64,000 bases of DNA from a virus, in IMG/VR virus record IMGVR_UViG_3300036772_000367, positions 1 through 64,000 of that record. One strand, written 5' to 3'. The notes below the pieces were generated by a model that had not been told where the DNA came from, did no database searches, and was given only the letters and a program-made list of their open reading frames with translations. Below, piece after piece: positions 4,016 to 23,094 of this stretch (its first letter is position 1; every line of letters begins with the position of its first letter). The translations under genes were made by a program, and so were the position numbers.

Positions 4016-4194
4016 TGGACGAGATCATTGTTGTGTTACTACCGTGTCCGGTGTGTGGTGAGCTGCATCCACAGGGCAGCGCGGTGGTCTTCCTGAGTCG
4101 ACGCTGCCGGCAGCGGTTCGATCGACTGCCACCGAACCGGCAGCGGGACGTCCTGGAGTTCGTCGTGGAGTTCGATCTACCTGAGGAGACATGA
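4015..4194 (+). CDS. small CxxC protein
   Basis: TAATG coupling; CPVCGELH. Confidence 0.5.
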   Translation: MDEIIVVLLPCPVCGELHPQGSAVVFLSRRCRQRFDRLPPNRQRDVLEFVVEFDLPEET

Positions 4195-5375
4195 TGGAGA
4201 AGCTGTCGGACAAGCTACTGTCCTGGGCGTCCATCCTGGAGCCGAACACGCAGGCCCAGGCTGAGATGACCTCGGCCATGCCCTTCGTGCGTCCGCACCT
4301 GGCGTTGATGCCTGACTGCCATCTCGGAAAAGGCTCCACGGTCGGTTCTGTCATTCCGACCGAGAGGGCCATCATGCCGGCGGCGGTGGGCGTGGATATT
4401 GGCTGCGGGATGATGGCGGTGAAGACCCAGTTCACCGAGGAGCAATTCCGGGAGCGTGCCGAGCAGTATCCACTGGCGCACCTGCGCGAGGACATCGAGC
4501 TGTCCATTCCGTTGTCCAAGGGCAACGCCAACGCTCACCTGACGTCCTCGGCGGTGAGCCGGATCAGCCAGTTGGAAGGTCACGCAGAGCGGGCCAGATT
4601 CGATCCGGCGGAACGGCTGTCCAACTGGCAGTATCAGCTCGGCACGTTGGGCTCAGGTAACCACTTCATTGAGGTGACCGCCGACGAAGCTGGTTCAGTG
4701 TGGCTGTTCCTGCACTCCGGCAGCCGAGGTGTTGGCAACCGGATCGCGCAGAAGTACATCAAGGTCGCTCAACAGTGGTGCGAGCGGTGGTTCATCGATC
4801 TCCCGAATCCCGACCTTGCCTATCTGGTGCAGGACACCGAGGACTTCTGGGCCTACATACGAGAGATGAACTGGGCGCAGGAGTTCGCGTGGCTCAACCG
4901 TCAAGAAATGATGGACCGGGTGGAACGGGCTATCGAGCGGTACATGCATCGAACCGTGGCTCGGTTGGAGACGGTGCATTGCCACCACAACTTCACCCAG
5001 CAGGAGGTCCACTTCGGCCGTGAGCTGTGGGTGTCGCGCAAGGGAGCGATCCGTGCCGGCAAGGGTGAGATGGGTCTGATCCCCGGCAGCATGGGCACCG
5101 CCTCCTACGTGGTGTCGGGCCTGGGCAACGTCGCGTCGATGTCCTCGGCACCGCATGGCGCCGGTCGAGTGTTGTCGCGGGGAGCGGCCAAGCGCACCTT
5201 CGACCTGGAGGGCCTGCGTACGGCCATGACCGGCATCGAGTACCGAGACTCCGACGTGTTCCTGGATGAGCACCCGAACGCGTACAAGGATGTGGAAGTC
5301 GTGATGAAGGATGCGGCCGACCTGGTCGAGATCCAACACACGTTGCACCAGACTCTGAATGTAAAGGGGGATTGA
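4191..5375 (+). CDS. rtcB: RtcB RNA ligase
   Basis: MPDCHLG, GVDIGCG, GSGNHF, LHSGSRG, HHN, PGSMG, HGAGR motifs. Confidence 0.96.
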   Translation: MMEKLSDKLLSWASILEPNTQAQAEMTSAMPFVRPHLALMPDCHLGKGSTVGSVIPTERAIMPAAVGVDIGCGMMAVKTQFTEEQFRERAEQYPLAHLREDIELSIPLSKGNANAHLTSSAVSRISQLEGHAERARFDPAERLSNWQYQLGTLGSGNHFIEVTADEAGSVWLFLHSGSRGVGNRIAQKYIKVAQQWCERWFIDLPNPDLAYLVQDTEDFWAYIREMNWAQEFAWLNRQEMMDRVERAIERYMHRTVARLETVHCHHNFTQQEVHFGRELWVSRKGAIRAGKGEMGLIPGSMGTASYVVSGLGNVASMSSAPHGAGRVLSRGAAKRTFDLEGLRTAMTGIEYRDSDVFLDEHPNAYKDVEVVMKDAADLVEIQHTLHQTLNVKGD

Positions 5376-12687: not shown

Positions 12688-12854
12688 TGATCATCATCGA
12701 GGTGGATGACGCCAACGAGACGGAACTCCGGCTGGCCGGCACCTTCGTCCAGACGGTGGAGCGGGACGGCTTCGTGGGGTTCGAGGACCCCACGGACCAC
12801 TATGACCTCAAAGGCTTCAACGTCGTCAGCATCAGCAGCGTCATGGGTCCCTGA
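12684..12854 (+). CDS. 56-aa acidic protein (not in ORF track)
   Basis: ATGA coupling, AAGGA RBS; MMIIIEVDDANETEL... Confidence 0.6.
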   Translation: MMIIIEVDDANETELRLAGTFVQTVERDGFVGFEDPTDHYDLKGFNVVSISSVMGP

Positions 12855-12873
12855 CCAGGACAAATCAAAATCC

Positions 12874-12903
12874 TTGACTCGTCCGCAGAACCCCGGCTAC
12901 ACT
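12874..12903 (+). promoter_or_regulatory. promoter of tRNA operon
   Basis: A-rich upstream, TTGACT-N18-TACACT. Confidence 0.7.
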
Positions 12904-12911
12904 GGTGCTCA

Positions 12912-13087
12912 GCTCGACCGGACCAGCTCCACCGGGAAACCGGATGGCGGACTCCCGCCCAGGACGGTAAGGTCGAGCATAGGACCTGGACATCGGCCGC
13001 ACTGGAGGTCATCATCAAGCAGGCGAGAGGCCGACAGCGACAGCGCTGAAGGTCTCCAGCAGAACTTTCCTCTTGCAGGGAAGAAGA
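12912..13087 (+). ncRNA. structured leader RNA of tRNA operon
   Basis: GCTCGACC/GGTCGAGC outer stem, CCGG-GAAA-CCGG and other hairpins; internal copy of start-associated motif. Confidence 0.5.
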
Positions 13088-13132
13088 GGTACGAGACAGC
13101 GTTGGCCTGACCTCCGGTGTCTGTCTCGTACC
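13088..13132 (+). ncRNA. hairpin RNA antisense to early-gene RBS motif
   Basis: 12-bp stem; TGACCTCCGGTG (13108-13119) is the reverse complement of CACCGGAGGTCA. Confidence 0.55.
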
Positions 13133-13135: not shown

Positions 13136-13209
13136 CGCGGAGTGGCGCAACTCGGTAGCGCGCTGGGCTCATAACCCAGAGGTCCCTGGTTCGAATCCAG
13201 GCTCCGCTA
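13136..13209 (+). tRNA. tRNA-fMet(CAT)
   Basis: cloverleaf, C1:U72 mismatch, three G-C pairs in anticodon stem. Confidence 0.93.
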
Positions 13210-13254
13210 CGTAGGATAGATGTGGGTCGGACTTAGGCCGTCAGCATATGATCT

Positions 13255-13273
13255 CTGACAACTCCATGACCAT
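13255..13273 (+). repeat. left arm of 19-bp inverted repeat (boxA-like)
   Basis: CTGACAACTCCATGACCAT is the exact reverse complement of 23743-23761. Confidence 0.9.
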
Positions 13274-13372
13274 TCCCGGTAGTCCGCCAAGCTACTGGGC
13301 TGTGCGGGGCAGTCTCCCCGTGTATCAATCCTTGACGGCCGTCCGTGTCATATAGCGGATCGGACGGCCGAT

Positions 13373-13443
13373 GACGGAGTGGCCGAGAGGCGAGGCGACC
13401 GCCTGCAAAGCGGTGCACACGGGTTCGAATCCCGTCTCTGTCT
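13373..13443 (+). tRNA. tRNA-Cys(GCA)
   Basis: cloverleaf, loop CTGCAAA, U73. Confidence 0.92.
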
Positions 13444-13505
13444 CATAGGCTCCTAGGAGGGCACCAGTTGTCTGGACTGGTGGGAGTGAGGAAAGCCCTC
13501 CGCTT

Positions 13506-13578
13506 GGGGTCGTGGCGCAATTGGTAGCGCGCCTGTCTGGCAGACAGGGGGTTGTGGGTTCAATTCCCACCGATTCCA
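13506..13578 (+). tRNA. tRNA-Ala(GGC)
   Basis: cloverleaf, G3.U70. Confidence 0.92.
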
Positions 13579-13708
13579 CGGCTGATGTTCGACTACGTGC
13601 GCCATGCCTGTAGGCGGAAGACATCAGTGGCCGGCACCAGCCTGCTGCGGCAGGGTGACCCGGCGTCCGGTCTGAGGGCTCCAACATTGTCCTCAGACCG
13701 GACCATAA

Positions 13709-13781
13709 GGGCTGCTAGCTTAATTGGAAGAGCGACTCCTTTGCACGGAGTTAGGTCGGGGTTCGAGTCCCCGGTGGTCCA
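13709..13781 (+). tRNA. tRNA-Ala(TGC)
   Basis: cloverleaf, G3.U70. Confidence 0.92.
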
Positions 13782-13883
13782 CGTGGGAATGCAGGTCAAC
13801 ATCACCTTCCCTCCCCAGGAGACTTGCATTCCCCTTTTCCAAGGAGGTGGTTGTTCATGGATTAGCTCCCCTAGGAGGTAATC

Positions 13884-14096
13884 GTGAGCAGGACCGATAA
13901 AGATCGCAAGCGCCACCATCTGCCCGAGGACGAACAGCCTCGTATCTTCCACGGTGGCGGCGACTGGCAGGGCATCAACAGGTACGTGAACATGTACTTC
14001 ACCAGGCCCGACCGGCGCCGCGCCAAGCGCGCGTGCCAGCTCGGACAGGAGTACACCAGGCCCCATCGTCACGATGGGCGCTGGATGTACTGGTAG
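13884..14096 (+). CDS. small basic protein (MSRT...W type)
   Basis: GTG after AGGAGGT. Confidence 0.65.
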   Translation: MSRTDKDRKRHHLPEDEQPRIFHGGGDWQGINRYVNMYFTRPDRRRAKRACQLGQEYTRPHRHDGRWMYW

Positions 14097-14204
14097 ACGG
14101 AGTCGGCTACCTGGGAGATACCCCGGTGCACCGGGACGGCTCAGGTCCGTTGAAATGCCGACCGCGCTGCCTGCCTCACCCCCCTGCGGTAGGCAGCGCG
14201 TCAT

Positions 14205-14278
14205 GGTGGATGTAGCTCAGCTGGCAGAGCGCCGGGCCGTGGTCCCGGAGGCGGTGGGTTCGAACCCCACCATTCACC
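14205..14278 (+). tRNA. tRNA-His(GTG)
   Basis: cloverleaf, G-1:C73, unusual C33. Confidence 0.9.
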
Positions 14279-14281
14279 CGA

Positions 14282-14346
14282 GAGAGAAAGACCAGGTTTG
14301 AATCCTGGCTGGCGACAGTCGGCAGTGTGTGAAGAGCACGCCTCTC
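14282..14346 (+). ncRNA. circularly permuted tRNA-like RNA 1
   Basis: T arm, then acceptor hairpin closed by GACA, then D arm, closed by GAGAG/CTCTC. Confidence 0.5.
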
Positions 14347-14352
14347 GTTATA

Positions 14353-14419
14353 CGCAGTGCGCCGCAACGGCCTCGTGCTTTCAGGAACCGGCCAGCCCGT
14401 TCGAGTCGGGCCACTGCGC
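14353..14419 (+). ncRNA. tRNA-like element, central TCA, defective anticodon stem
   Basis: 7-bp acceptor CGCAGTG/CACTGCG, T arm GCCCG-TTCGAGT-CGGGC, mini D arm. Confidence 0.5.
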
Positions 14420-14530
14420 AGTTCTGCCACGGCAGCTACCCGGTAAGCCCTCCGCTTCGGCCGACACGGTGCCGGGTCGTGGTAGTTGAAACGCTGCACG
14501 GAGCACTTTGGCGCCGAAGTGCTCCACCAT

Positions 14531-14604
14531 GCGGATGTAGCTCAGATTGGTAGAGCGCGACCTTGCCAAGGTCGAGGCCACGGGTTCGATCCCCGTTATC
14601 CGCT
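14531..14604 (+). tRNA. tRNA-Gly(GCC)
   Basis: canonical cloverleaf. Confidence 0.94.
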
Positions 14605-14620
14605 CGCGTTGATTTGACAT

Positions 14621-14693
14621 GCTCCTATCGTCTAGCGGCCTAGGATCTCGGATTTTCACCCCGGGGGCACGGGTTCGAATCCCGTTGGGAGTA
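14621..14693 (+). tRNA. tRNA-Glu(TTC)
   Basis: cloverleaf, one anticodon-stem mismatch. Confidence 0.9.
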
Positions 14694-14697
14694 CGAA

Positions 14698-14772
14698 GGG
14701 AAAGGTAGAGGTTCAATTCCTCTCCGCCCGGCCACATCGGGCGAGTGGTGTTAACGTGGCGTGCACATTCCC
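14698..14772 (+). ncRNA. circularly permuted tRNA-like RNA 2
   Basis: GGGAA-AGGT-T arm-CCGCCCG-G-CCA-cat-CGGGCGAG-TG-D arm-A-TTCCC. Confidence 0.7.
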
Positions 14773-14779
14773 GGCTCTT

Positions 14780-14851
14780 GGCGATTTAGCTCAGTGGAAG
14801 AGTGCTTCCGTGACATGGAAGATGTCCCAGGTTCGATCCCTGGAATCGCTA
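14780..14851 (+). tRNA. tRNA-Val(GAC)
   Basis: cloverleaf, G32. Confidence 0.9.
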
Positions 14852-14852
14852 C

Positions 14853-14925
14853 GGCGGTATAGCTCAGTCGGCAGAGCGCGCGATTCATATTCGCGTCGTC
14901 CCTGGTTCGATCCCAGGTACCGCTA
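14853..14925 (+). tRNA. tRNA-Met(CAT), elongator type
   Basis: cloverleaf, GGC start. Confidence 0.85.
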
Positions 14926-15024
14926 CGTAGTACTCACCCCGAGGTACGCCCGACGTGAGAGCAGGCGGAATTTGTCAGGTATCAGACTGATCATCTGAGG
15001 TTTTGGCGTTCGTGGTCTGCATCC

Positions 15025-15099
15025 GCTCCGTTCGTCTAGTTGGCCTAGGACATCACGTCCTCAGCGTGAAGATCATGGGTTCGAATCCCATACGGAGTA
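15025..15099 (+). tRNA. tRNA-Glu(CTC)
   Basis: cloverleaf, C33. Confidence 0.9.
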
Positions 15100-15174
15100 C
15101 ATGAGGATTCCAGGAGTGGCCACTCCCGAGATCATGCAGGACCCCGATAGCTCAGGAATCCCTGTCGGGGGAAG

Positions 15175-15260
15175 GGAAGTGCGGCGGAGATGGCGGGCCG
15201 CGCCTGACTGTAAATCAGGAGTCCGTAGGACCGTTGGAGGTTCGAATCCTCTCGCTTCCA
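15175..15260 (+). tRNA. tRNA-Tyr(GTA)
   Basis: class II cloverleaf. Confidence 0.92.
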
Positions 15261-15487
15261 CTCGCCCTGGATTGTAGCCAGGGCGAACTACGTCGCCGAA
15301 CTGGAATGGGCACGGCGTCCTGCTCACCCAGGGGATAATGTTGCATACCAGCTACGGAGCGACGACCGTCAACAAGGCTGGGAGGGTTCTAGTCAACCCG
15401 AGCCAGGAAGTGCTGATCGAGGTGGAGTTCTCGGACTGCCCTGAGTCTGGGGACAGAGAAGCTGTTGACGTCGCCCTTCCTGGTCTT

Positions 15488-15560
15488 GCGTCGTTAGCTC
15501 AGTTGGTAGAGCACCATCCTCTTAAGTTGGGGGTCGAGAGTTCGAGCCTCTCACGGCGCA
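15488..15560 (+). tRNA. tRNA-Lys(CTT)
   Basis: cloverleaf. Confidence 0.92.
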
Positions 15561-15985
15561 CTGAGTCGGAACCATTTTTGTGTTTTAGCGGTTCGCCTCA
15601 TATGACAGTTGGCGCAAACAACTTGGCATTTCTCGATTTCACGGAGAATTCGTGACCATGCCAAACCACTGCCAATCATCACACTGAGGTTAGCGATCTT
15701 GTCGTGCTGATGATCGAATTGAAGTACGACAATATCCGTCTCTCCGCAGTCAGTGCATGGATGCTCGATCAAGTAGTCGCAGATCTTGTTTCGTAGTTCT
15801 ACGCCATACTGTTTCTTCCGCGCGTAGCGTGTGGGATTGTGAATGTCCTTAGTTTTCGTATAGTATGCTGCGTTGTATGATTTGCGACATTCTTTGCAAT
15901 GTACCTGTAAGCCGTCCGCCTTGGCTTTATTCGATCCAAATTCGGAGACTGGCTTGTCGTGTTTGCAGCCGGAGCAATATTTCAT
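15551..15985 (-). CDS. HNH endonuclease with N-terminal Zn finger
   Basis: CxxC...CxxC, then PCTDCG...FDH...CANCH; lower GC; only clear minus-strand gene. Confidence 0.88.
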   Translation of the reverse strand: MKYCSGCKHDKPVSEFGSNKAKADGLQVHCKECRKSYNAAYYTKTKDIHNPTRYARKKQYGVELRNKICDYLIEHPCTDCGETDIVVLQFDHQHDKIANLSVMIGSGLAWSRILREIEKCQVVCANCHMRRTAKTQKWFRLSAP

Positions 15986-16010
15986 TGTAAGAGTCTAACA
16001 GAGTAAGAGG

Positions 16011-16083
16011 GCTCCCTTAGCTCAGGGGTGAGAGCGGCTGGCTTATATCCAGTGGGTCGGGGGTTCAATTCCTCCAGGGAGCA
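16011..16083 (+). tRNA. tRNA-Ile(TAT)
   Basis: cloverleaf, loop CTTATAT. Confidence 0.88.
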
Positions 16084-16149
16084 CGAGGGGACTCGGTCGG
16101 ATCAGGAGGGCCGAGGATATCGGGTAGCGGGCTGACCCCGATGCATGAT

Positions 16150-16221
16150 GGTCCTATAGCTCAGCGGGAGAGCACCTCGTTCACACCGAGGGGGTCGGAG
16201 GTTCAATCCCTCCTGGGACTA
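16150..16221 (+). tRNA. tRNA-Val(CAC)
   Basis: cloverleaf. Confidence 0.92.
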
Positions 16222-16401
16222 CGCCGTACATGCGGCTCCAATCGAGCGTGAGAGGAAAGATCAGCCCTTGCGATCCCGGAATCATCGGCGGGTTAAAGGG
16301 TGTCGGATGGTCTCACGGCGGATAGGGGATGAGTCCGCTAGTCTCTCTACTTGATCCAGGTGATGTTAGGAAGCGAGGGCTGTTGCGCCAGTCCTCGTCT
16401 T

Positions 16402-16475
16402 GGCTGTGTAGCCCAACGGCAGGAGGCACCTGGCTTAGACCCAGGACAGTGCACGTTCGAATCGTGTCGCAGCCA
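16402..16475 (+). tRNA. tRNA-Leu(TAG), short variable loop
   Basis: cloverleaf, Leu-type D arm, A73. Confidence 0.9.
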
Positions 16476-16603
16476 CGTGGCGCAACGGGAATTGATCACC
16501 CGTTGTTGTTGACAAAGGGCCTTGGTCTGACCCTGCCACAGAAAATTCACCCGCTCTGGCAGCTCATGTCGTCCTAGGCAACGGCGGTGGGCAGGAGCGT
16601 TAA

Positions 16604-16677
16604 ACCCCATTAGCTCAGGCGGATAGAGCGTCGCGCTACGAACGCGAAGGCCGGAGGTTCGAATCCTCTATGGGGTG
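16604..16677 (+). tRNA. tRNA-Arg(ACG)
   Basis: cloverleaf, A20. Confidence 0.93.
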
Positions 16678-16678
16678 C

Positions 16679-16912
16679 GTGACCGATCAAATCGAAGTCG
16701 AGAGACTGAAGAATGGTCTCAAGTGGATCGAGCACATTGCTACCGTGCACTGGTACGGACAGGCATTCGAGCCACATCATATGCATGCTCTCGCACAACT
16801 GGCCAGCCAGCTATGCGACGGCAAGGAATTGCCTGATTTTGATACCCGGATGCGCGCAGCGATGGAGCGCGGTCAGCAGATATCCGAGGACATGGGGAAG
16901 CACTCGGAATGA
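16679..16912 (+). CDS. hypothetical protein directly after tRNA-Arg
   Basis: GTG 1 nt after discriminator. Confidence 0.55.
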   Translation: MTDQIEVERLKNGLKWIEHIATVHWYGQAFEPHHMHALAQLASQLCDGKELPDFDTRMRAAMERGQQISEDMGKHSE

Positions 16913-17004
16913 GCGAGACGTGGACAGCCGCAGAACGATCTGGGAGAGCGCCATGGGCTGGCTGGTGGCGATGTCCCTATGTCTCTCGGATGACCTAAGT
17001 TCTT

Positions 17005-17078
17005 GTCCTTGTAGCCCAACTGGCAGAGGCGGCGGGTTTAAGCCCCGCGCGGTGTGGGTTCGAATCCCACCGAGGACA
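17005..17078 (+). tRNA. tRNA-Leu(TAA), short variable loop
   Basis: cloverleaf. Confidence 0.9.
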
Positions 17079-17107
17079 CTGCTCTGGGATATTTCAAGGG
17101 AGACAGT

Positions 17108-17281
17108 ATGAGCGGAAACAGAGCTTTCGGCTATGGCCTGGGTGCTGGAGTCGCCACCGTTTCTATTCCTATGATGTTCTCTGCTAACTTTGGGGGCGGC
17201 CTGATTCTTCTGTGCGCTGCGAGCGCGATTATCGCGATAACCGGCGGCACTGATCGGATAGTCAAGCGTATCCGGAGGTAA
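17108..17281 (+). CDS. small membrane protein
   Basis: AAGGGAG RBS; two hydrophobic helices, basic tail. Confidence 0.6.
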   Translation: MSGNRAFGYGLGAGVATVSIPMMFSANFGGGLILLCAASAIIAITGGTDRIVKRIRR

Positions 17282-17290
17282 TCGCAAGAG

Positions 17291-17363
17291 GTTCCTGTAG
17301 CCCAATGGTAGAGGCACTGGCATGAGAGGCCAGACAGTGCAGGTTCGACTCCTGTCAGGAACA
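17291..17363 (+). tRNA. tRNA-Leu(GAG), short variable loop
   Basis: cloverleaf, A32. Confidence 0.9.
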
Positions 17364-17433
17364 CGTGATCACTCGGAGTCGCGGACCGCCGCGACGTTAC
17401 TTGGCCAGCCACCGGCCCCTGTCCCTACTATTC

Positions 17434-17507
17434 GCTCCTGTGACCCAATTGGCAGAGGTACCAGAATCAGAATCTGGTTGTTGGAGGTTCGAATCCTCTC
17501 GGGAGCA
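17434..17507 (+). tRNA. tRNA-Leu(CAG), short variable loop
   Basis: cloverleaf, A32. Confidence 0.9.
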
Positions 17508-17509
17508 CG

Positions 17510-17578
17510 GCGGGAAGTCAGGGGTTCGAGTCCCCTTCGGTCCACGCAGGGGCCGGTACCTCAGCGGCAGAGGCCCGC
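17510..17578 (+). ncRNA. circularly permuted tRNA-like RNA 3
   Basis: GCGGG-AAGTC-T arm-TCGGTCC-A-cgcag-GGGCCGG-TA-D arm-CCCGC. Confidence 0.8.
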
Positions 17579-17582
17579 ATTT

Positions 17583-17656
17583 GTCCTTGTAGCCCAACTG
17601 GCAGAGGCGTCCGATTCAAGATCGGAATGTTGGGGGTTCGAATCCCTCCTAGGACA
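17583..17656 (+). tRNA. tRNA-Leu(CAA), short variable loop
   Basis: cloverleaf. Confidence 0.9.
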
Positions 17657-17657
17657 C

Positions 17658-17864
17658 ATGGCCAGTTACGATCGAGCCCTGGATGCTGCTCTCGCTGCTC
17701 AGGTGAGAGTAGGAATCACACTGGATGAGCTCTTTAGACAGAACTTGGGGAAGGAGCTTCCCATCGAGCTTCTTCTGCGAGCTTTGGAAATTAACACTCA
17801 GTGTGGCTTCCTGGCAGCACGGATCGCCGAGATTCATCTACAAGCACGAGGGAAGGCCACATGA
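17658..17864 (+). CDS. hypothetical protein directly after tRNA-Leu
   Basis: ATG 1 nt after discriminator; ATGA coupling to VWA gene. Confidence 0.55.
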   Translation: MASYDRALDAALAAQVRVGITLDELFRQNLGKELPIELLLRALEINTQCGFLAARIAEIHLQARGKAT

Positions 17865-18529
17865 GCAAGCCGGGTTACACGGCGATCTGTCTGGTGATCG
17901 ACTCGTCGGGGTCAATGTTCAGCATCAAGAAGGTCACCGAGGAGACGGTGAACGGCTTCATCACCGAGCAGGCCCAGGCCGAGGGATATCGCACCCTGCG
18001 GCTGGCGACGTTCAGCAGCGGTTGGGTGATGGATGGCAGCCCCTGGTTGGCCGACAGCGGCTCCAGCGTGCCCGCCAGCGAGGTAGAATCCTTCGTCCTG
18101 CATCCCGAGGGCGCTACGGCCCTTCTGGACGCTGTCGGCACCATGGTGACCAAGTTCGGGCAGGAGCTGGCCGACCTGGACGAGGCCGACCGGCCTGAGC
18201 ACGTGGTCTTCGCCCTGATGACCGATGGCCAGGAGAACTCCTCGCGGGAGTACACCTGGGAGCAGGTCAGCAAGATGCTGACGCATCAGCAACAGGTGTA
18301 CTCCTGGAACGTCACCTTTCTGGGTGCCAACCAGGATGCCATCGCCACGGCCAGCAAGCTGTCCATTCCGCGCGGCAGCAGCCTGACGTTCGCGGCGAAC
18401 GATCAGGGCGTCCACGGCTCGATGAGCGCCTTCAGCACCTACACGAAGTCGGCTGCCGCCGGCATGACGTACAATTACACCGACGACGATCGGATTCGCT
18501 CGTCGGGTCTGGCGCCGAAGCAGCCGTAG
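17861..18529 (+). CDS. von Willebrand factor A domain protein
   Basis: MIDAS DSSGS, T-A-L-L-D-A, MTDGQENSS. Confidence 0.88.
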   Translation: MSKPGYTAICLVIDSSGSMFSIKKVTEETVNGFITEQAQAEGYRTLRLATFSSGWVMDGSPWLADSGSSVPASEVESFVLHPEGATALLDAVGTMVTKFGQELADLDEADRPEHVVFALMTDGQENSSREYTWEQVSKMLTHQQQVYSWNVTFLGANQDAIATASKLSIPRGSSLTFAANDQGVHGSMSAFSTYTKSAAAGMTYNYTDDDRIRSSGLAPKQP

Positions 18530-18537
18530 CGTCAGGG

Positions 18538-18610
18538 GCGCTCCTAGCTCAATGGATAGAGCATCGCTTTCCTACAGCGACGGTTGGGGGTTCGACTCCC
18601 CCGGAGTGCA
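18538..18610 (+). tRNA. tRNA-Arg(CCT)
   Basis: cloverleaf, A20. Confidence 0.92.
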
Positions 18611-18772
18611 CACCCTTTCATTCCGGGGTTATGGAATGCCCTTACGCCGATATGGGGTTAGGATGAGGCCGGGAGTAGGTCGACACTCACCAGTTGTCTA
18701 ATCGGAAGTGGTCGTACTCGTAGTACACCTCGTTTCCCCGAGCAACGAGACGAAATGAGGCGGCCCACCTAA

Positions 18773-18846
18773 GCGCTACTAGCTCAGCTGGACAGAGCAC
18801 CACTTTCCGAAAGTGGAAGTCGGGGGTTCGAGTCCCTCGTAGCGCA
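18773..18846 (+). tRNA. tRNA-Arg(CCG)
   Basis: cloverleaf, A20. Confidence 0.92.
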
Positions 18847-18847
18847 C

Positions 18848-18991
18848 GCAGGAGAGGCACTGGAGGATGCGGCGGGTCAGCCGCCGCTGCGTACCGTCGT
18901 CCAGGGACACCCTGGCCGGTGTGTAGGAATACTCAACCATCCGTTGTCCCTTGAGTAAGGACAGGGGGTTCGACTCCCCCACCTCTCCTGC
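18848..18991 (+). ncRNA. 144-nt multi-stem RNA with tRNA T arm
   Basis: 10-bp closing stem GCAGGAGAGG/CCTCTCCTGC, GGGGG-TTCGACT-CCCCC, three internal arms. Confidence 0.6.
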
Positions 18992-18994
18992 CCG

Positions 18995-19066
18995 TGCGAT
19001 GTCGTCCAACGGTCAGGGCACCGAGCTGATAACTCGGGAACGAAGGTTCAATTCCTTCCGTCGCAA
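18995..19066 (+). tRNA. tRNA-Ile(GAT)
   Basis: cloverleaf. Confidence 0.9.
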
Positions 19067-19141
19067 CTCGGAGAGGTCACTGCGGAATACCGGGGTTGCG
19101 TTACCGTACGCGTGACAACCGTCGCGCACCTCTCCGTTCAA

Positions 19142-19216
19142 CGCCTTGTAGCTCAATGGACAGAGCCGGGAGCCTCTACCTCCTGTGAGTTGGGGGTTCG
19201 AGTCCCTCCAGGGCGG
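19142..19216 (+). tRNA. tRNA-Arg(TCT)
   Basis: cloverleaf, A20, C33, 7-nt variable region. Confidence 0.82.
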
Positions 19217-19231
19217 CGTAGTAAAGACCAT

Positions 19232-19302
19232 GGCATCATAGCTTAGGGGCAAAGCATTCGCCTGAAAAGCGAGAGACGGAGGTTCGATTCCTCCTGTTGC
19301 CA
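19232..19302 (+). tRNA. tRNA-Phe(GAA)
   Basis: cloverleaf. Confidence 0.9.
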
Positions 19303-19325
19303 CGCAGAAAAGGAGATCAGACACA

Positions 19326-19562
19326 ATGGCTCATTGTTCAGCATGTAAGACTAAGGCGAAGTGCACGATCGAGGGCTGTGTCATCTTCGGTGGCCATTTC
19401 CGTACGAGCAGCTACTGCAAGATCGATACTCCGCAGTGTGTTGCGGTGATACACCACTCCACGTACGCGGCCGTGCAGGACACCAAGAGCACCAAGGTGC
19501 TGGTGATGTCCCCGACAATGTTCATCAAGTTCGTGAACTCGGATCTCGTCCAGTCGCGGTAG
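19326..19562 (+). CDS. small Cys-rich protein; C-terminus DUF397-like
   Basis: AAAGGAG RBS; FRTSSYC...CVAV...AVQDTK. Confidence 0.55.
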   Translation: MAHCSACKTKAKCTIEGCVIFGGHFRTSSYCKIDTPQCVAVIHHSTYAAVQDTKSTKVLVMSPTMFIKFVNSDLVQSR

Positions 19563-19568
19563 TCCGGT

Positions 19569-19641
19569 GCCTGCGTAGCTCAACTGGCAGAGCCCCGTTC
19601 TTGTAAAACGGTGGTTGGGGGTTCGAGTCCTCTCGCAGGCT
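19569..19641 (+). tRNA. tRNA-Thr(TGT)
   Basis: cloverleaf. Confidence 0.92.
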
Positions 19642-19721
19642 CGTCTTCCCGTGAGCGTGCCCGTGCGCGCGGGAGGAAAGATCGAAGAACCGGCGGTACA
19701 CGGGATTCTCCGGTTACATCT

Positions 19722-19793
19722 GCCCTTTTAGCTCAGTGGTAGAGCACCTTCTTGGTACGAAGGGGGCCGCGAGTTCGATCCTCGCATTGGGCT
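19722..19793 (+). tRNA. tRNA-Thr(GGT)
   Basis: cloverleaf, two U.U mismatches in acceptor stem. Confidence 0.85.
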
Positions 19794-19901
19794 CGGGAAG
19801 TATCCCAGGTAACATAAACTGATTCGGCTCGGTGAGGGTCCTCGGTGCTTCCTAGTAAAAGGACGGGCTGCTTCACATGGCAGGGGAGTAGCCCGTCCTT
19901 C

Positions 19902-19974
19902 GCCTCAGTAGCTCAGTTGGCAGAGCGTTCCTCTCGTAAAGGAAAGGCCGGAGGTTCAATCCCTCTCTGAGGCT
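19902..19974 (+). tRNA. tRNA-Thr(CGT)
   Basis: cloverleaf. Confidence 0.92.
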
Positions 19975-19975
19975 C

Positions 19976-20074
19976 GTTGTGAGTAGCTCAGTGGCAGAGC
20001 GGTAGCAGCAGGGTGAAACCTCGCTGTGCATCGACGTCAGTTTATGACACAGGTTCGATTCCTGTCTCACAACT
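19976..20074 (+). ncRNA. tRNA-like RNA with elongated, non-canonical anticodon arm
   Basis: 8-bp acceptor GTTGTGAG/CTCACAAC, canonical D and T arms. Confidence 0.75.
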
Positions 20075-20079
20075 TTCAT

Positions 20080-20153
20080 TGGGTAGTAGGGGAAATGGCA
20101 GACCCACCTGGCTCTGACCCAGGGTTTTGGAGGTTCGAGTCCTCCCTACCCAG
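20080..20153 (+). tRNA. tRNA-Gln(CTG)
   Basis: cloverleaf, U1-A72. Confidence 0.9.
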
Positions 20154-20170
20154 CTTTTTAGGAGGGCAAT

Positions 20171-20407
20171 GTGCGATTAACTGAAGCACAAGAGCGAACC
20201 CTAGAGGAAGCAACCTGCCAGAAATGCTTCCAAGCAGGTGGATTGACAGTCGAGTACAGACTGACCGCCATGCCGATCGGCAGCTTCTCACTGGCTGGTG
20301 CCCAGATGAAAGTCAGTGCCCTTGAGTGGCCCTGGCTGATGTGCCGGCACTGTGGCGCGGAATGCCAGGGCAAGCAAGTCACTACGACCACTCCGGAGGG
20401 CACGTGA
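20171..20407 (+). CDS. zinc-ribbon protein
   Basis: CQKC...CRHC; AGGAGG RBS. Confidence 0.65.
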   Translation: MRLTEAQERTLEEATCQKCFQAGGLTVEYRLTAMPIGSFSLAGAQMKVSALEWPWLMCRHCGAECQGKQVTTTTPEGT

Positions 20408-20631
20408 GCGAGGATCTCTACGAAGTCGGTATGCCGGTTGTGGGTTTGAACAGGTATGGGGACGTGGTCGAAGGTGTCTACCACGGCGCCACTGAGCAGA
20501 CCTATGTCTGTCGAGGGCATCTCGTCTCCACACCTGTTCACCATATTGTCGATGACACGGGCCTTGGCCGAATGGTTTTCCCCGACACTGTCGTAGCACT
20601 CACTGATCTGGAGAGGATGCCCCGGGCATGA
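20404..20631 (+). CDS. hypothetical protein
   Basis: GTGA coupling, GGAGG RBS. Confidence 0.6.
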   Translation: MSEDLYEVGMPVVGLNRYGDVVEGVYHGATEQTYVCRGHLVSTPVHHIVDDTGLGRMVFPDTVVALTDLERMPRA

Positions 20632-21107
20632 CGGACGACCAGGTACCGAATGAGGATGCTTCGGCACCGTACGACGGCCCCAGTGGCGAGATCATCGCCC
20701 AGACCCTCCGGGAGGCCCTGGGGATGCTGAAGAACGGCTACGACGACACCAAGGAGATCCTGGGTGCTTCGGTGGCCGCCGCGCTCGTGGCGCTGTTCCA
20801 GGAGGAGCTGGACGCCATCACCGAACACCTCTCCGGATCGGACGGCGAGCCGGCAGCGGTGGCTGTCTCTCCCTGTCGCAGTGAGACGTGTGCAGCCGAT
20901 CTGGCCCAGGCCCTGCTGGATGAGTACTGGAAGGGCATCGAGGAAGCGCCCGCCGTGGAGATCCCGGAGAACGGCGGCGCGGCCATGGTGGAGCTGCATG
21001 TACGCGGTCAGCATGTGTCCCTGTCGAAGGAGTTCGACACGCTGCCTGAGCTGGCCGTCGGTCTGGATGACATGGCGACCAAAGTCCGAGGGCTGATCAA
21101 GGAGTAA
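20628..21107 (+). CDS. acidic hypothetical protein
   Basis: ATGA coupling, GC3-rich. Confidence 0.65.
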   Translation: MTDDQVPNEDASAPYDGPSGEIIAQTLREALGMLKNGYDDTKEILGASVAAALVALFQEELDAITEHLSGSDGEPAAVAVSPCRSETCAADLAQALLDEYWKGIEEAPAVEIPENGGAAMVELHVRGQHVSLSKEFDTLPELAVGLDDMATKVRGLIKE

Positions 21108-21114
21108 GGAGCGC

Positions 21115-21189
21115 GGGTCGTTAGCTCAAATTGCGCAGAGCATCCGGCTTTTACCCGGAGGGTTCTGGGTTCGAATCCCAGGCGGCCTA
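21115..21189 (+). tRNA. tRNA-Lys(TTT)
   Basis: cloverleaf; D loop lacks GG. Confidence 0.88.
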
Positions 21190-21193
21190 CTAA

Positions 21194-21264
21194 TCCGGAT
21201 TGGTCTAATGGCAGGACAACGCTCTTTGGAAGCGTGAGCAAAGGTTCGAATCCTTTATCCGGAG
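21194..21264 (+). tRNA. tRNA-Gln(TTG)
   Basis: cloverleaf, U1-A72. Confidence 0.9.
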
Positions 21265-21279
21265 CAGAGGTGATGTTGA

Positions 21280-21732
21280 TTGAGTTACTGTCGATTGTCC
21301 GATGACGATTACCAATGTGATGTGTACGTGTACGAGGACGCCAGCTTCGGCGGATGGACTACCTGGGTGGCATCCCACCGGCCTGTGCTGGTCGATCTTC
21401 CGGACCCCATTGATCTGCCCGACGAGCACACCGAGGCTCAGTTCGCGGCGTTCTACGAGCGGTGGCGCGCGGTAGGCAAGTTGGTGGAGAAGGCCGAGAG
21501 AATCGAGATCGGCCTGCCCCATGACGACGGCCAGTTTCGCCATGGCTCGCCGGGAGAGTGTGCGGACAACCTCCTGCGGCTGCGGGAGATGGGCTACAAC
21601 GTGCCCGACTACGCCATCGAACGACTGCGGGCAGAGCAAGCCGAGGGTCACACGAATCCGCTAAAGTCGATGGACGATCTCATGAAAGAGATCACGGGGG
21701 AACTTGCGGGCGAAGTTGGTGATGCTGGATGA
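21280..21732 (+). CDS. conserved-looking phage protein (MSYCR...CDVYVYE)
   Basis: TTG after GAGGTGA. Confidence 0.7.
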   Translation: MSYCRLSDDDYQCDVYVYEDASFGGWTTWVASHRPVLVDLPDPIDLPDEHTEAQFAAFYERWRAVGKLVEKAERIEIGLPHDDGQFRHGSPGECADNLLRLREMGYNVPDYAIERLRAEQAEGHTNPLKSMDDLMKEITGELAGEVGDAG

Positions 21733-21911
21733 AAAGTACGGCCGGGCGCCCCAGCATGGGTAAGCGGACACGCAAGGGTGGTGCTGAGTACGACGCCTTC
21801 TCGCGGTACTGGCGACACTTCATGAGCCAACGCCGAGGTGTCATCAAGACCTTGGCTCGTCGCCGTGAGCGACGTCAAGCACACCAGTGGGATTGGACCA
21901 CCGGCTGGTGA
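21729..21911 (+). CDS. small basic protein
   Basis: GAEYDAFSRYWR...RRERR. Confidence 0.55.
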   Translation: MKSTAGRPSMGKRTRKGGAEYDAFSRYWRHFMSQRRGVIKTLARRRERRQAHQWDWTTGW

Positions 21912-22044
21912 CAGAGTTCGGGACCTCTTGTCCGCGTATGGCACGCAGGGCACGGGATACAACACCATCGCGATCTCCCAACGGCACGTGACGTGGTGGA
22001 GATCTTGGGAAACGCTGGTTGCGCACTGGCGCCCGGACCCCTAG

Positions 22045-22131
22045 GGAGGTATGGCAGAGTGGTAATGCGCTGTCCTGCTAAGACAAGGCTCGGTTTAAAA
22101 CCCGACGAAGGTTCAATTCCTTCTACCTCCG
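22045..22131 (+). tRNA. tRNA-Ser(GCT)
   Basis: class II cloverleaf, G73. Confidence 0.92.
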
Positions 22132-22133
22132 CT

Positions 22134-22254
22134 GGCTAGTGGTGTAACGGCGCACACCCGAAGATCTCGGCAATACTAGTTGAGCCTGAAGCGTGAGTGC
22201 ACCGCGCGGAAAAGAGAAGCTTCGGTAGGTTCGGTTCGACTCCGGCGGCCTACC
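22134..22254 (+). ncRNA. tRNA-like RNA with about 60-nt structured insert at the anticodon position
   Basis: D arm GTGT-AACGGC-GCAC, CCGAAG/CTTCGG stem, TTCGACT T loop. Confidence 0.55.
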
Positions 22255-22271
22255 CTCGTGAAAGGATATTC

Positions 22272-22667
22272 ATGGCTCGGTCCGAAGGTAAGTTCAGTGT
22301 GGGAAACCACAACGAGCAGATCCTGTATCTGCGTGGTGCCGAGCGAGATGCCGATCTGATGGTGGCGGCCTTCTTCAAGTCCGGTGTCGGCAAAGCAATC
22401 GCTGAGGTGCTGAACAATCATCTGGATGAGGTTATTCATACCATCATGACGTACACAGGGAGTGTACGACCGGGAATCCCGGTGAAGCCCGACAACAGCG
22501 AGGCACGAAAGACGACGATCAACGCGGGGGTCACAACAGTACTTAGCCAACTCAACAGTTCCGATGCTGCTGCCGTCTCCCTGATGACCGGACTCAGCAA
22601 TACTGAACTCGACGATCTCGGTGGATTGCCGTCCGACTCGATCTATGACGATCGGGCGTCGGACTGA
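22272..22667 (+). CDS. hypothetical protein
   Basis: AAAGGA RBS. Confidence 0.6.
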   Translation: MARSEGKFSVGNHNEQILYLRGAERDADLMVAAFFKSGVGKAIAEVLNNHLDEVIHTIMTYTGSVRPGIPVKPDNSEARKTTINAGVTTVLSQLNSSDAAAVSLMTGLSNTELDDLGGLPSDSIYDDRASD

Positions 22668-23017
22668 TGACTGATTCCCTAGTCATACAATTCACGATCG
22701 ATCTGGCGGATCTCCTGGGTAGCCCGCACCACACCTTCACCCAAGAGATGATGCGCGGGATGGGAGACAAGACAGTGCCGCTACGGAAGGGAGAGGGTGG
22801 CCCTCAGATCGGCTACGGCGTCATTGTGGAAGACCAGGACACTGAACACCTCTTCCTGTACGCCACGGTTACCAACTCACCCGAGCTGTTCGCGGACGTG
22901 ATGTCGTCCTACAGTGTTGGCTTCACCGAGTGCACCAGCCCGCTGCACGGCCGGGATCGGCACACCGAGGACGGTTGTGCCCTGCGGCAGATGTCAGACA
23001 AGCTGGATGTGGATTGA
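22667..23017 (+). CDS. hypothetical protein
   Basis: TGATG coupling. Confidence 0.6.
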   Translation: MTDSLVIQFTIDLADLLGSPHHTFTQEMMRGMGDKTVPLRKGEGGPQIGYGVIVEDQDTEHLFLYATVTNSPELFADVMSSYSVGFTECTSPLHGRDRHTEDGCALRQMSDKLDVD

Positions 23018-23022
23018 AAGAA

Positions 23023-23094
23023 CGGGGCGTAGCTCAGCGGTAGAGTGCCTGATTTGGGATCAGGAAGTGGCAGGTCCGACTCCTGTCGCCCCGA
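23023..23094 (+). tRNA. tRNA-Pro(TGG)
   Basis: cloverleaf; T loop TCCGACT. Confidence 0.9.

What the first reader, a model, noticed from the sequence alone, without database searches (positions are those of the whole stretch)
14698..14772. Second permuted tRNA mimic, with an internal NCCA in the linker
Seen: GGGAA / AGGT / AGAGG-TTCAATT-CCTCT / CCGCCCG / G-CCA / cat / CGGGCGAG / TG / GTGT-TAACGTGGCGT-GCAC / A / TTCCC, packed between tRNA-Glu (ends 14693) and tRNA-Val (starts 14780). CCA sits exactly after the discriminator position although almost none of the true tRNA genes here encode CCA. Inference: RNase P could cut at 14738 to give a two-piece tRNA with a real CCA end and an open anticodon, a pre-nicked tRNA mimic or an RtcB substrate.
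Basis: partly seen in the sequence, partly recalled or inferred. Interest (0 to 1): 0.85.

Follow-up and report, generated by a model that had tools for sequence, protein, structure and literature searches.

The report
Permuted tRNA mimic with built-in CCA
Between two tRNA genes of an uncultured soil phage lies a conserved 75-base RNA that folds like a tRNA with its halves swapped: a stand-alone version of the tRNA-like part of bacterial Y RNAs, with no anticodon, its "amino-acid end" closed by a loop that already contains CCA, and no Ro60 partner.

Summary
Bases 14698-14772 form a circularly permuted cloverleaf. In order it has a 5-bp closing stem, a canonical T arm, a 6-bp (+C.A) acceptor hairpin capped by G-CCA-CAU, and a D-like arm. 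It fills the gap between tRNA-Glu(UUC) and tRNA-Val(GAC).

It is not chance or debris. An ortholog in a related metagenomic phage differs at 9 positions and none breaks a pair. Two changes are compensatory pairs, and CCA-CAU is kept. Across 7 family members, 18 of 21 pairs covary.

[quoted passage not shown] M. smegmatis YrlA is already known to be cut by RNase P in this cap and to receive CCA. The RtcB-substrate idea does not fit the end chemistry.

Three things are new:
- There is no Ro60-binding helix, no Ro60 gene and no Rfam hit.
- Several copies sit inside a 40-tRNA operon.
- N-CCA is genomically encoded in 4 of 7 members but in 0 of 39 true tRNAs.

Verdict: a new variant of a known kind. 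The scan had already noted sibling copies in this genome.

The parts
14698..14702 (+). 5' strand of the closing ('anticodon-stem') helix, GGGAA
   Evidence: It pairs with 14768-14772. All 5 pairs show changes on both sides across the family.
14703..14706 (+). Variable-region equivalent, AGGT
   Evidence: It is identical in the L053 ortholog.
14707..14723 (+). T arm AGAGG-TTCAATT-CCTCT with a canonical T loop (T54 T55 C56 R57 A58)
   Evidence: In the ortholog the G-C pair became C-G, a compensatory change.
14724..14730 (+). Acceptor 3' strand CCGCCCG
   Evidence: It pairs with 14738-14744 (6 bp + C.A). In the ortholog a C-G pair became U-A.
14731..14737 (+). Cap of the acceptor hairpin: discriminator G14731, CCA 14732-14734, linker CAU 14735-14737 (U at RNase P position -1)
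   Evidence: CCA-CAU is conserved in L053 while the discriminator changed G to U. N-CCA is present in 4 of 7 family members.
14738..14744 (+). Acceptor 5' strand CGGGCGA. C14738 would be tRNA position +1, the predicted RNase P cut site 14737/14738.
   Evidence: The cut site is inferred from the M. smegmatis YrlA precedent.
14745..14767 (+). Spacer GUG, D-like arm GTGT-TAACGTGGCGT-GCAC (loop contains GG), and A26-like A14767
   Evidence: The stem GTGT/GCAC is shared with L053 and L055 homologs.
14768..14772 (+). 3' strand of the closing helix, TTCCC
14621..14693 (+). tRNA-Glu(UUC). Its 3' processing would set the 5' end of the element.
   Evidence: The same neighbour is found in L053 and L055.
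14780..14851 (+). tRNA-Val(GAC). RNase P at its 5' end would set the 3' end of the element.
17510..17578 (+). Sibling element el1 (cap ACGCAG, 7-bp acceptor with G3.U70 and A73)
   Evidence: Rfam YrlA 28.3 bits. Homologs at L050:2289-2358 and L055:2825-2895.
14282..14346 (+). Sibling element el3 (3-nt cap, T loop TTTGAAT)
   Evidence: 50.3 bits with R3.
4191..5375 (+). RtcB RNA ligase gene (context only; in bacteria RtcB is genomically linked to Ro60/YrlA)
   Evidence: Pfam PF01139 384.9 bits; PHROG 1075. It is conserved upstream of the array in L053 and L054.

Best explanation
The element is a functional, stand-alone tRNA-mimic RNA of the YrlA-module type. It is a circularly permuted tRNA body (T arm, capped acceptor stem, D arm, ends meeting in the anticodon-stem position) with no anticodon loop and no Ro60-binding helix.

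Shown here:
- The fold is conserved.
- It covaries across orthologs and paralogs.
- It is as well conserved as the neighbouring tRNAs.

Inferred:
- It is co-transcribed with the tRNA operon.
- It is released by the same enzymes that mature its neighbours: 3' processing of tRNA-Glu, and RNase P at the 5' end of tRNA-Val.

Inferred from the M. smegmatis YrlA precedent:
- RNase P also cuts between U14737 and C14738. The determinants are a 12-layer acceptor/T stack, a T/D elbow, U at -1 and a cis NCCA.
- The 3-nt CAU tail is then trimmed.
- The product is a nicked, anticodon-less tRNA look-alike with a genuine, genome-encoded CCA end. It would be held together by the acceptor and closing helices.

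Most speculative: because it cannot decode, it would act as a tRNA-shaped decoy or cofactor for proteins that read the elbow or the acceptor/CCA end. Candidates are host tRNA-directed defence toxins and RNA-repair or processing factors. This would serve a phage that brings 40 tRNAs and an RtcB ligase.
For: Fold and order:
- The segments are all present in the stated order.
- The re-permuted sequence is called a tRNA by ARAGORN.

Ortholog at L053:13843-13916, also directly after tRNA-Glu(UUC):
- It is 88% identical, within the 69-96% range of the orthologous tRNAs, while the spacers diverge to 12-81%.
- All 9 differences spare base pairing.
- Two are compensatory pairs, one in the T stem and one in the acceptor stem.

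Family alignment of 7 members:
- 97% of cells are paired.
- 18 of 21 pairs change on both sides.
- The covariation score is 0.80, against 0.22 for shuffles (0 of 500 reach it) and 0.27 or less for slid controls.

Link to YrlA:
- The order T arm, capped acceptor, D arm is the same as in the Rfam YrlA consensus.
- The sibling el1 hits YrlA at 28 bits.
- A model built from el2 (R2) detects the siblings el1 and el3, the ET08 array element and a Ro60-adjacent Y RNA in another phage.

CCA:
- It is kept in the ortholog.
- N-CCA follows a 7-bp acceptor in 4 of 7 members from at least 3 lineages.
- 0 of 39 true tRNAs encode it.

Precedent: M. smegmatis YrlA is cut by RNase P in the cap and carries CCA in vivo (PMC4201824). 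The YrlA module is a crystallographically proven tRNA mimic (bioRxiv 10.1101/312249).

Stability: the two predicted pieces co-fold at -29.9 kcal/mol, against -24.0 for the pieces apart.

Context: RtcB is encoded 9 kb upstream and is syntenic in relatives.
Against: - There are no RNA data of any kind, so transcription, RNA ends and RNase P cleavage are all unshown.
- el2 itself gives no YrlA hit at E<10, and its D stem differs from the strongly conserved YrlA D stem.
- The acceptor has only 6 Watson-Crick pairs plus C.A. Chen et al. attribute RNase P cleavage to a full 7-bp stem.
- A closed 7-nt cap may be a poor RNase P substrate.
- The more distant homolog L055:317-382 has a 3-nt cap, a degenerate T loop (TGAAATT) and no GG in its D loop. 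Neither the CCA nor the elbow is therefore indispensable to the lineage.
- The discriminator is not conserved (G vs U), which argues against specific aminoacylation.
- Only one close ortholog exists, and the covariation alignment was fitted to the structure by cmalign.
- No binding partner is identified, so the decoy/cofactor role is conjecture.
Confidence: 0.55

Rival explanations
1. Closed-cap mimic. The element is the same conserved tRNA-shaped RNA, but the cap is never opened. The G/U-CCA-CAU loop would be a recognition motif, or simply a stable loop, and the RNA would act as an intact 'circularly permuted tRNA', as proposed for most YrlA RNAs.
For: [quoted passage not shown]
- el2 has only 6 WC pairs plus C.A.
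- The siblings el3 and L055:317-382 have 3-nt caps that can hardly be cut.
- CAU is conserved together with CCA in the ortholog.
Against: - N-CCA sits at a fixed distance from the acceptor 3' strand, while loop length varies from 7 to 10 nt among the CCA-bearing members. That fits a 3'-end signal better than a loop motif.
- U at -1 and a cis NCCA are classic bacterial RNase P determinants (established knowledge).
- M. smegmatis YrlA is cleaved.
Confidence: 0.2
2. Genuine Y RNA. The element would bind the host's Ro60 (Rsr) and tether it to an effector, like YrlA.
For: - It has the same tRNA-like module.
- Distant relatives (cluster C mycobacteriophages) encode Ro60 with an adjacent YrlA.
- Actinobacterial hosts such as M. 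smegmatis have Rsr.
Against: - There is no room for a Ro60-binding helix. The closing stem is 5 bp and the flanks are tRNAs 4-7 nt away.
- The GNCGAAN0-1G motif is absent and the flank is not conserved (CGAA vs CUGA).
- There is no TROVE or vWA_Ro60 gene in the complete 155-kb genome.
- There is no Rfam YrlA hit.
Confidence: 0.08
3. Non-functional relic of tRNA-gene rearrangement. It would be a decayed junction of two tandem tRNA copies that merely still looks like tRNA halves.
For: - It lies in a dense tRNA array containing several other odd tRNA-like fragments.
- YrlA itself is thought to derive from dimeric tRNAs.
- The thermodynamic z-score is unremarkable.
Against: - Two compensatory changes and no pair-breaking change among 9 differences from the ortholog.
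- Conservation equals that of the working tRNAs while spacers decay.
- There is no detectable sequence similarity to any of the phage's 40 tRNAs, so it is not a recent rearrangement.
- There is family-wide covariation.
Confidence: 0.07
4. True permuted tRNA gene. The ends would be ligated (for example by the phage RtcB) into a circle that creates an anticodon loop. The acceptor would then be opened by RNase P/Z to give a decoding tRNA, as in Cyanidioschyzon merolae.
For: - The pre-tRNA architecture is identical to algal permuted tRNA genes.
- The phage encodes RtcB.
- CCA is encoded.
Against: - The flanks that would make the loop are not conserved between orthologs: CGAA plus GGCUCUU versus CUGA plus a trailer of about 57 nt.
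- They give 10-11 nt rather than a 7-nt loop with U33/R37. The same test fails for el1 in three genomes.
- There is no bulge-helix-bulge motif or splicing endonuclease.
- RNase P/Z ends are chemically wrong for RtcB.
Confidence: 0.04

Closest known systems
YrlA (Y RNA-like A, Rfam RF02553) of Salmonella, Mycobacterium smegmatis and cluster C mycobacteriophages
   Same: - A tRNA-like module with the T arm 5' of the D arm, the acceptor stem closed by a loop, and the 5' and 3' ends meeting in the anticodon-stem position.
- Canonical T loop and GG in the D loop.
- In M. smegmatis the cap is cut by RNase P and the 3' strand ends in CCA.
- Genomic association with RtcB and with tRNA genes.
   Different: - No Ro60-binding helix or GNCGAAN0-1G motif, and no Ro60 gene in the phage.
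- 75 nt instead of about 110-150 nt, and below any Rfam score.
- A different D stem (GUGU/GCAC instead of the conserved GCUC/GAGC).
- Full CCA is encoded in the genome; M. smegmatis encodes only C and adds CA.
- Three or more copies sit inside a tRNA operon.
Unannotated YrlA-like element inside the tRNA array of mycobacteriophage ET08 and about 200 other cluster C1 phages (NC_013650: 92485-92610)
   Same: - It lies between two tRNA genes.
- It has the same module order and a 7-bp acceptor starting C1-G72, G2-C71, G3-C70.
- Its cap begins G-CCA-CA.
- The el2-derived models R2 and R3 detect it (27.7 and 62.3 bits).
   Different: - It is 126 nt, with an additional long outer stem (AUGCCAAG/CUUGGCAU) and an extra hairpin, so it may still bind the phage's own Ro60.
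- It matches Rfam YrlA over the full model length, at 24.6 bits.
Circularly permuted tRNA genes of Cyanidioschyzon merolae and some other algae and archaea
   Same: The 3' half is encoded before the 5' half. The acceptor is initially a closed loop that RNase P/Z must open. The anticodon stem is formed by the transcript ends.
   Different: Those genes carry the anticodon-loop nucleotides and a bulge-helix-bulge motif. They mature through a circular intermediate to decoding tRNAs. Here no anticodon loop can be assembled and the organism is a phage of bacteria.
Two-piece (permuted) tmRNA of alpha- and beta-proteobacteria and cyanobacteria
   Same: Permuted gene order, with T arm, acceptor 3' strand and CCA first, and the acceptor 5' strand later. 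The product is a nicked tRNA-like domain with a CCA end. The beta_tmRNA model weakly hits the sibling el1.
   Different: There is no tag reading frame, no pseudoknots and no SmpB-replacing architecture. ARAGORN finds no tmRNA. el2 lacks the G3.U70 alanine identity pair; the sibling el1 has it.

Membership tests
YrlA / bacterial Y RNA (RF02553) | tRNA-like module in the order closing stem, T arm, loop-capped acceptor stem, D arm | tested here: met
   The layout is the same as the Rfam consensus structure line shown.
YrlA / bacterial Y RNA (RF02553) | Ro60-binding helix formed by the 5' and 3' ends, carrying the GNCGAAN0-1G motif | tested here: not met
   The closing stem is only 5 bp, with tRNA genes 4 and 7 nt away. 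The upstream UACGAAG lacks the leading G and is not conserved in L053 (CUGA).
YrlA / bacterial Y RNA (RF02553) | Encoded next to a Ro60 (TROVE-domain, rsr) gene | tested here: not met
   There is no PF05731 or PF25045 match in the complete 155,226-bp genome. The positive control ET08 gives TROVE at 128.5-129.6 kb.
YrlA / bacterial Y RNA (RF02553) | Score at or above the Rfam gathering threshold (69 bits) | tested here: not met
   There is no hit at E<10 for 14698-14772, and the sibling el1 scores 28.3 bits. The ET08 YrlA-like match next to its Ro60 gene reaches only 37.4 bits in the same pipeline.
YrlA / bacterial Y RNA (RF02553) | Elbow nucleotides (T-loop UUCRA, D-loop GG) conserved | tested here: inconclusive
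   They are present in el2 and its close ortholog. Both are lost in the distant homolog L055:317-382. The conserved YrlA D-stem sequence is absent.
Canonical tRNA | Acceptor ends free, anticodon arm with a 7-nt loop; detected by ARAGORN or Rfam RF00005 | tested here: not met
   It is not called in native order. It is called only after artificial re-permutation with an added loop.
Permuted tRNA gene (C. merolae type) | 3' half encoded upstream of the 5' half, joined by a short linker at the acceptor | tested here: met
Permuted tRNA gene (C. merolae type) | Flanks supply a complete anticodon loop and a bulge-helix-bulge processing motif | tested here: not met
   The flanks give 10-11 nt, are not conserved between orthologs and have no U33/R37 pattern. 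The same is true of el1.
Permuted tRNA gene (C. merolae type) | Circular RNA intermediate | not testable with these tools
   No RNA holder is listed for this DNA.
Two-piece tmRNA | Tag-peptide reading frame and pseudoknots between the acceptor 5' strand and the T arm; G3.U70 | tested here: not met
   ARAGORN finds no tmRNA. The element is 75 nt in all, and its position-3 pair is G-C.

The most novel reading that the evidence does not exclude
The element and its siblings may form a previously unrecognised class of phage anti-defence RNAs. They would be Ro60-independent, anticodon-less 'split tRNAs' that RNase P converts into molecules with an authentic CCA end. These would soak up, or be preferentially modified by, host toxins that attack the tRNA acceptor/CCA end, such as nucleotidyltransferase or pyrophosphokinase toxins of actinobacteria. 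Being without an anticodon, they would be immune to anticodon nucleases. The G3.U70/A73 sibling might even be aminoacylated. This would show that the YrlA tRNA-like module has a function of its own, independent of Ro60.
Probability: 0.15. Interest if true: 0.8.

Novelty: new variant of a known kind. Interest (0 to 1): 0.6.

Why it matters
What the tRNA-like domain of bacterial Y RNAs binds, and why, has been open since 2014. Here the same module occurs stripped of its Ro60-binding half. It sits in a phage that has no Ro60, in several diverged but structurally conserved copies, and is embedded in a tRNA operon beside an RtcB ligase.

That argues the module has an activity of its own. It also gives a minimal 75-nt version to work with. 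The genome-encoded, conserved CCA in the cap makes the RNase P opening step seen in M. smegmatis YrlA look selected for, at least in some lineages.

A related, unannotated element sits in the tRNA arrays of about 200 cultivable cluster C mycobacteriophages. The idea is therefore directly testable in M. smegmatis.

The finding also shows that phage tRNA arrays hold conserved non-decoding tRNA look-alikes that standard tRNA and Rfam annotation miss.

Tried and rejected
**Rfam**
- At gathering thresholds it finds only tRNAs in the window.
- At E<10 it finds nothing on el2. The YrlA hit at 14795-14905 is the known false positive made by two adjacent tRNAs.

**Search for close relatives**
- There is no close phage in the INPHARED (GenBank phage) collection, by DNA or with the 531-aa protein.
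- The nearest are cluster C phages at 40% portal identity.
- IMG/VR relatives found through the portal have 0-5 tRNAs and no module.
- RtcB relatives in IMG/VR lack arrays.
- A vWA protein search of IMG/VR gave nothing.
- The ORF at 12706-13110 has no homologs.

**Exact-pattern scans**
- Scans of viral contigs for el2 and for tRNA-Met were empty.
- The first metagenome scan was empty. The second gave two chance hits that the model R3 rejects.

**Alignment and models**
- MAFFT could not align the three window copies.
- R1, a model built from el1 alone, did not recover el2.
- My relaxed pattern scanner was too noisy on ET08.

**RNA evidence**
- No RNA holder is listed for this DNA.

**Ideas rejected**
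- Circularisation to a decoding tRNA: rejected on the loop-length and flank-conservation test.
- A Ro60-type vWA or a phage CCA-adding enzyme: none found.
- Recent origin from one of the phage's own tRNAs: no similarity.

Full report
**Context**

The window is the first 64 kb of a complete 155,226-bp virus record from a soil metagenome. Its portal protein is about 40% identical to those of cluster C (Bxz1-like) mycobacteriophages and of Gordonia and Rhodococcus phages. It is therefore a distant actinophage relative of that group. It carries 40 ARAGORN tRNA genes, mostly in one plus-strand array at 13.1-23.7 kb. It also carries an RtcB RNA ligase gene at 4191-5375.

**Observation**

Two corrections apply:
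- The acceptor hairpin has six Watson-Crick pairs plus a C14724.A14744 mismatch at its base.
- The acceptor-to-D spacer is 3 nt.

The element fills the gap between tRNA-Glu(UUC) (ends 14693) and tRNA-Val(GAC) (starts 14780). Native-order tRNA finders and Rfam do not see it. When I joined its 5' half, an artificial 7-nt loop and its 3' half, ARAGORN at default stringency called a tRNA.

My own pattern scan of both strands of the genome recovers this element and a sibling at 17510-17578 under strict rules. It recovers a third at 14282-14346 under relaxed rules. The non-T-arm requirements are met at only 0.35% of genome positions. With about eight orphan T arms in the array, chance predicts about 0.03 complete elements.

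The MFE is essentially the permuted cloverleaf, but it is not unusually stable (z = -0.41).

**Comparative evidence**

Public phage and IMG/VR collections held no close relative with an array. Protein look-ups did find one. A phage assembled from the public sequencing run SRR24358106 has neighbouring proteins 83% and 73% identical and a syntenic tRNA array, split over two contigs (L053 and L050).

Directly after its tRNA-Glu(UUC) lies the ortholog, L053:13843-13916. It differs from el2 at nine positions:
- Two form a G-C to C-G swap in the T stem.
- Two form a C-G to U-A swap in the acceptor stem.
- Three lie at the variable T-loop positions 57, 59 and 60, and the purine at 57 is kept.
- One is the discriminator (G to U).
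- One is a single-base deletion in the D loop.

No change breaks a pair. The closing stem, the C.A mismatch, the D stem and the cap sequence CCA-CAU are identical. Overall identity is 88%, inside the range of the orthologous tRNAs (69-96%). The inter-tRNA spacers range from 12% to 81%.

A second, more distant relative comes from the run SRR29078248. Its array-embedded vWA protein is 53% identical to the window's (L055). It has a positional homolog after tRNA-Glu(UUC) at 317-382. That homolog has the same four helices and the same D stem GUGU/GCAC. However, its cap is 3 nt, its T loop is degenerate and its D loop has no GG.

**Family and covariation**

A covariance model built from the two el2 orthologs (R2) detects, besides itself:
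- the L053 and window copies of el3;
- the three el1 homologs;
- the L055 element;
- an element in the tRNA array of mycobacteriophage ET08;
- a Y RNA next to a Ro60 gene in yet another phage (L056);
- one domain of a tandem pair at about 110.2 kb of this genome.

On the seven-member structural alignment:
- 97% of cells pair.
- 18 of 21 pairs change on both sides.
- The covariation score is 0.80, against 0.22 for column shuffles (0 of 500 reach it) and at most 0.27 for slid partners.

The alignment was fitted to the structure, which inflates these figures somewhat. The two-sequence ortholog comparison does not depend on that.

A model built from the seven (R3) finds exactly the three window elements in the whole genome at E<0.01. 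It finds none of the tRNAs or tRNA-tRNA junctions. The halves of el2 show no special similarity to any of the phage's tRNAs or to el1 and el3, so these are old, diverged copies rather than recent rearrangements.

**What it resembles**

The order closing stem, T arm, loop-capped acceptor, D arm is that of the tRNA-like domain of YrlA Y RNAs. This is visible in the Rfam consensus structure. Its discoverers describe it as a circularly permuted tRNA (bioRxiv 10.1101/312249).

The sibling el1 matches RF02553 over model positions 17-92 at 28.3 bits. In ET08 the YrlA-like match next to the phage's Ro60 gene scores only 37.4 bits in the same pipeline, so sub-threshold scores are the norm for phage members.

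el2 nevertheless fails the defining YrlA features:
- It has no Ro60-binding helix or motif.
- There is no TROVE or Ro60-type vWA gene anywhere in the genome.
- It gives no Rfam hit.

I therefore file it as working like the YrlA module, but not as a YrlA family member.

**The CCA**

None of the 39 Rfam-confirmed tRNAs is followed by CCA. All 39 are followed by C. The phage has no CCA-adding enzyme.

Yet N-CCA immediately follows a 7-position acceptor strand in these members:
- el2 (G-CCA)
- its ortholog (U-CCA)
- the L053 copy of el3 (G-CCA)
- the ET08 array element (G-CCA-CA)

Cap length varies from 7 to 10 nt among them, and all four have C at +1 paired to G72. Three of the seven members lack it (el1 homolog, window el3, L055:317). 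Recurrence at a fixed register in at least three lineages is far above the roughly 1/64 chance per element.

The ET08 element is conserved at 95% identity or more in 202 cluster C phage records and is annotated in none of the 30 records listed.

**Mechanism**

Chen et al. showed the following for M. smegmatis YrlA, the one YrlA they examined that has a 7-bp acceptor (PMC4201824):
- It is cut by RNase P exactly at the tRNA +1 position of the cap, in vivo and with M1 RNA.
- The 3' strand then ends in CCA.

el2 offers the same determinants plus two more, a U at -1 and a pre-formed NCCA.

I therefore consider the following the most likely course. The operon transcript is cut at the flanking tRNAs, releasing about 14694-14779. 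RNase P opens the cap at 14737/14738. The CAU tail is trimmed. A nicked, anticodon-less tRNA look-alike with a real CCA end results. The two pieces co-fold about 6 kcal/mol better than apart.

All of these steps are inference. No RNA data exist for this DNA (see Tried and rejected).

What the product does is unknown. It cannot decode. The discriminator drift argues against specific charging. A decoy or cofactor role toward elbow- or CCA-end-reading proteins is my best guess, given a phage that invests in 40 tRNAs and RtcB.

RtcB itself is unlikely to act on RNase P/Z products, because the end chemistry is wrong. Circularisation into a decoding tRNA is excluded by the flanks: wrong length, not conserved, and no U33/R37 pattern.

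**Verdict**

This is a real, conserved, structured RNA. The proposed RNase P/CCA step is plausible and precedented, but it is not novel as a mechanism. The novelty lies in three things:
- a minimal, Ro60-independent form;
- multiple copies inside a tRNA operon;
- the encoded and conserved CCA.

Earlier notes of this scan had already flagged the sibling at 17510-17578 and a tandem pair near 110 kb in the same genome. I confirmed the former and partly confirmed the latter.

Noticed in passing
window 17510-17578; L050:2289-2358; L055:2825-2895: The sibling element el1 keeps a 7-bp acceptor with G3.U70 and discriminator A73 in all three genomes, while positions 5-7 change compensatorily. That is the alanine identity set shared with tmRNA. 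Its position in the array differs between genomes: between Leu-CAG and Leu-CAA here, between Leu-UAA and Leu-GAG in L050, and between Leu-UAA and Leu-CAA in L055.
   Followed up: partly
window 14282-14346 and L053:13494-13567: The third permuted element, el3, lies right after tRNA-His. The window copy has a 3-nt cap and T loop TTTGAAT. The L053 copy has a longer G.U-rich acceptor hairpin whose cap starts G-CCA.
   Followed up: partly
window 13209-31685 (3' ends of all tRNAs): All 39 Rfam-confirmed tRNAs are followed by C at position 74, and none by CCA. This may be a uniform 3'-processing or CCA-repair signal. The phage has no CCA-adding enzyme gene.
   Followed up: partly
window 23539-23626: This is a likely tRNA-Ser(UGA) missed by default ARAGORN and by Rfam. 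It is called at relaxed threshold and is homologous to the relative's tRNA-Ser(UGA). It is the only tRNA here with an encoded G-CCA 3' end.
   Followed up: yes
window 19976-20079: A normal-order tRNA-like RNA with an 8-bp acceptor, a canonical D arm and T arm, and an oversized, odd anticodon region of about 45 nt. It has no counterpart in the relative L050.
   Followed up: no
window 18848-18994: A 10-bp acceptor-like helix plus a canonical T arm enclose a structured insert of about 100 nt. ARAGORN calls nothing without the intron option.
   Followed up: no
window 14354-14418: A normal-order 65-nt mini tRNA-like element (7-bp acceptor CGCAGTG/CACTGCG, T arm GCCCG-TTCGAGT-CGGGC, no proper D arm) lies just downstream of el3.
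   Followed up: no
window 17801-18529; L050:3032-3682; L055:3273-3953; L056:10001-10648: A stand-alone vWA-domain (YegL-like) protein gene sits inside the tRNA array next to el1 and is syntenic in both relatives. In an unrelated phage (L056) its 47%-identical homolog lies 4 kb upstream of a Ro60 (TROVE + vWA_Ro60) gene with YrlA-like RNAs. This hints at a possible protein partner for the tRNA-like modules.
   Followed up: partly
G000:C1:110113-110337, minus strand (outside the window; L002): Another permuted tRNA-like domain has a perfect 7-bp acceptor (CCGGAGC/GCUCCGG) whose cap is a 56-nt two-hairpin insert. It is nested in a larger structure with a second T arm. It scores 26.4 bits on Rfam YrlA over the full model.
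   Followed up: partly
NC_013650.1 (phage ET08) 92485-92610 = L021:1501-1626: A 126-nt YrlA-like element lies between tRNA-Met and tRNA-Cys with the cap G-CCA-CAAAU. It is 95% or more identical in 202 cluster C mycobacteriophage records and is annotated in none of the 30 records listed. It is separate from the YrlA next to the phage's Ro60 gene at 128.2 kb.
   Followed up: partly
window 45688-47877 and 48165-51251: The 729-aa protein carries a LAGLIDADG domain, so it possibly contains an intein. The portal is 1028 aa, with about 300 residues more than its cluster C homologs cover.
   Followed up: no
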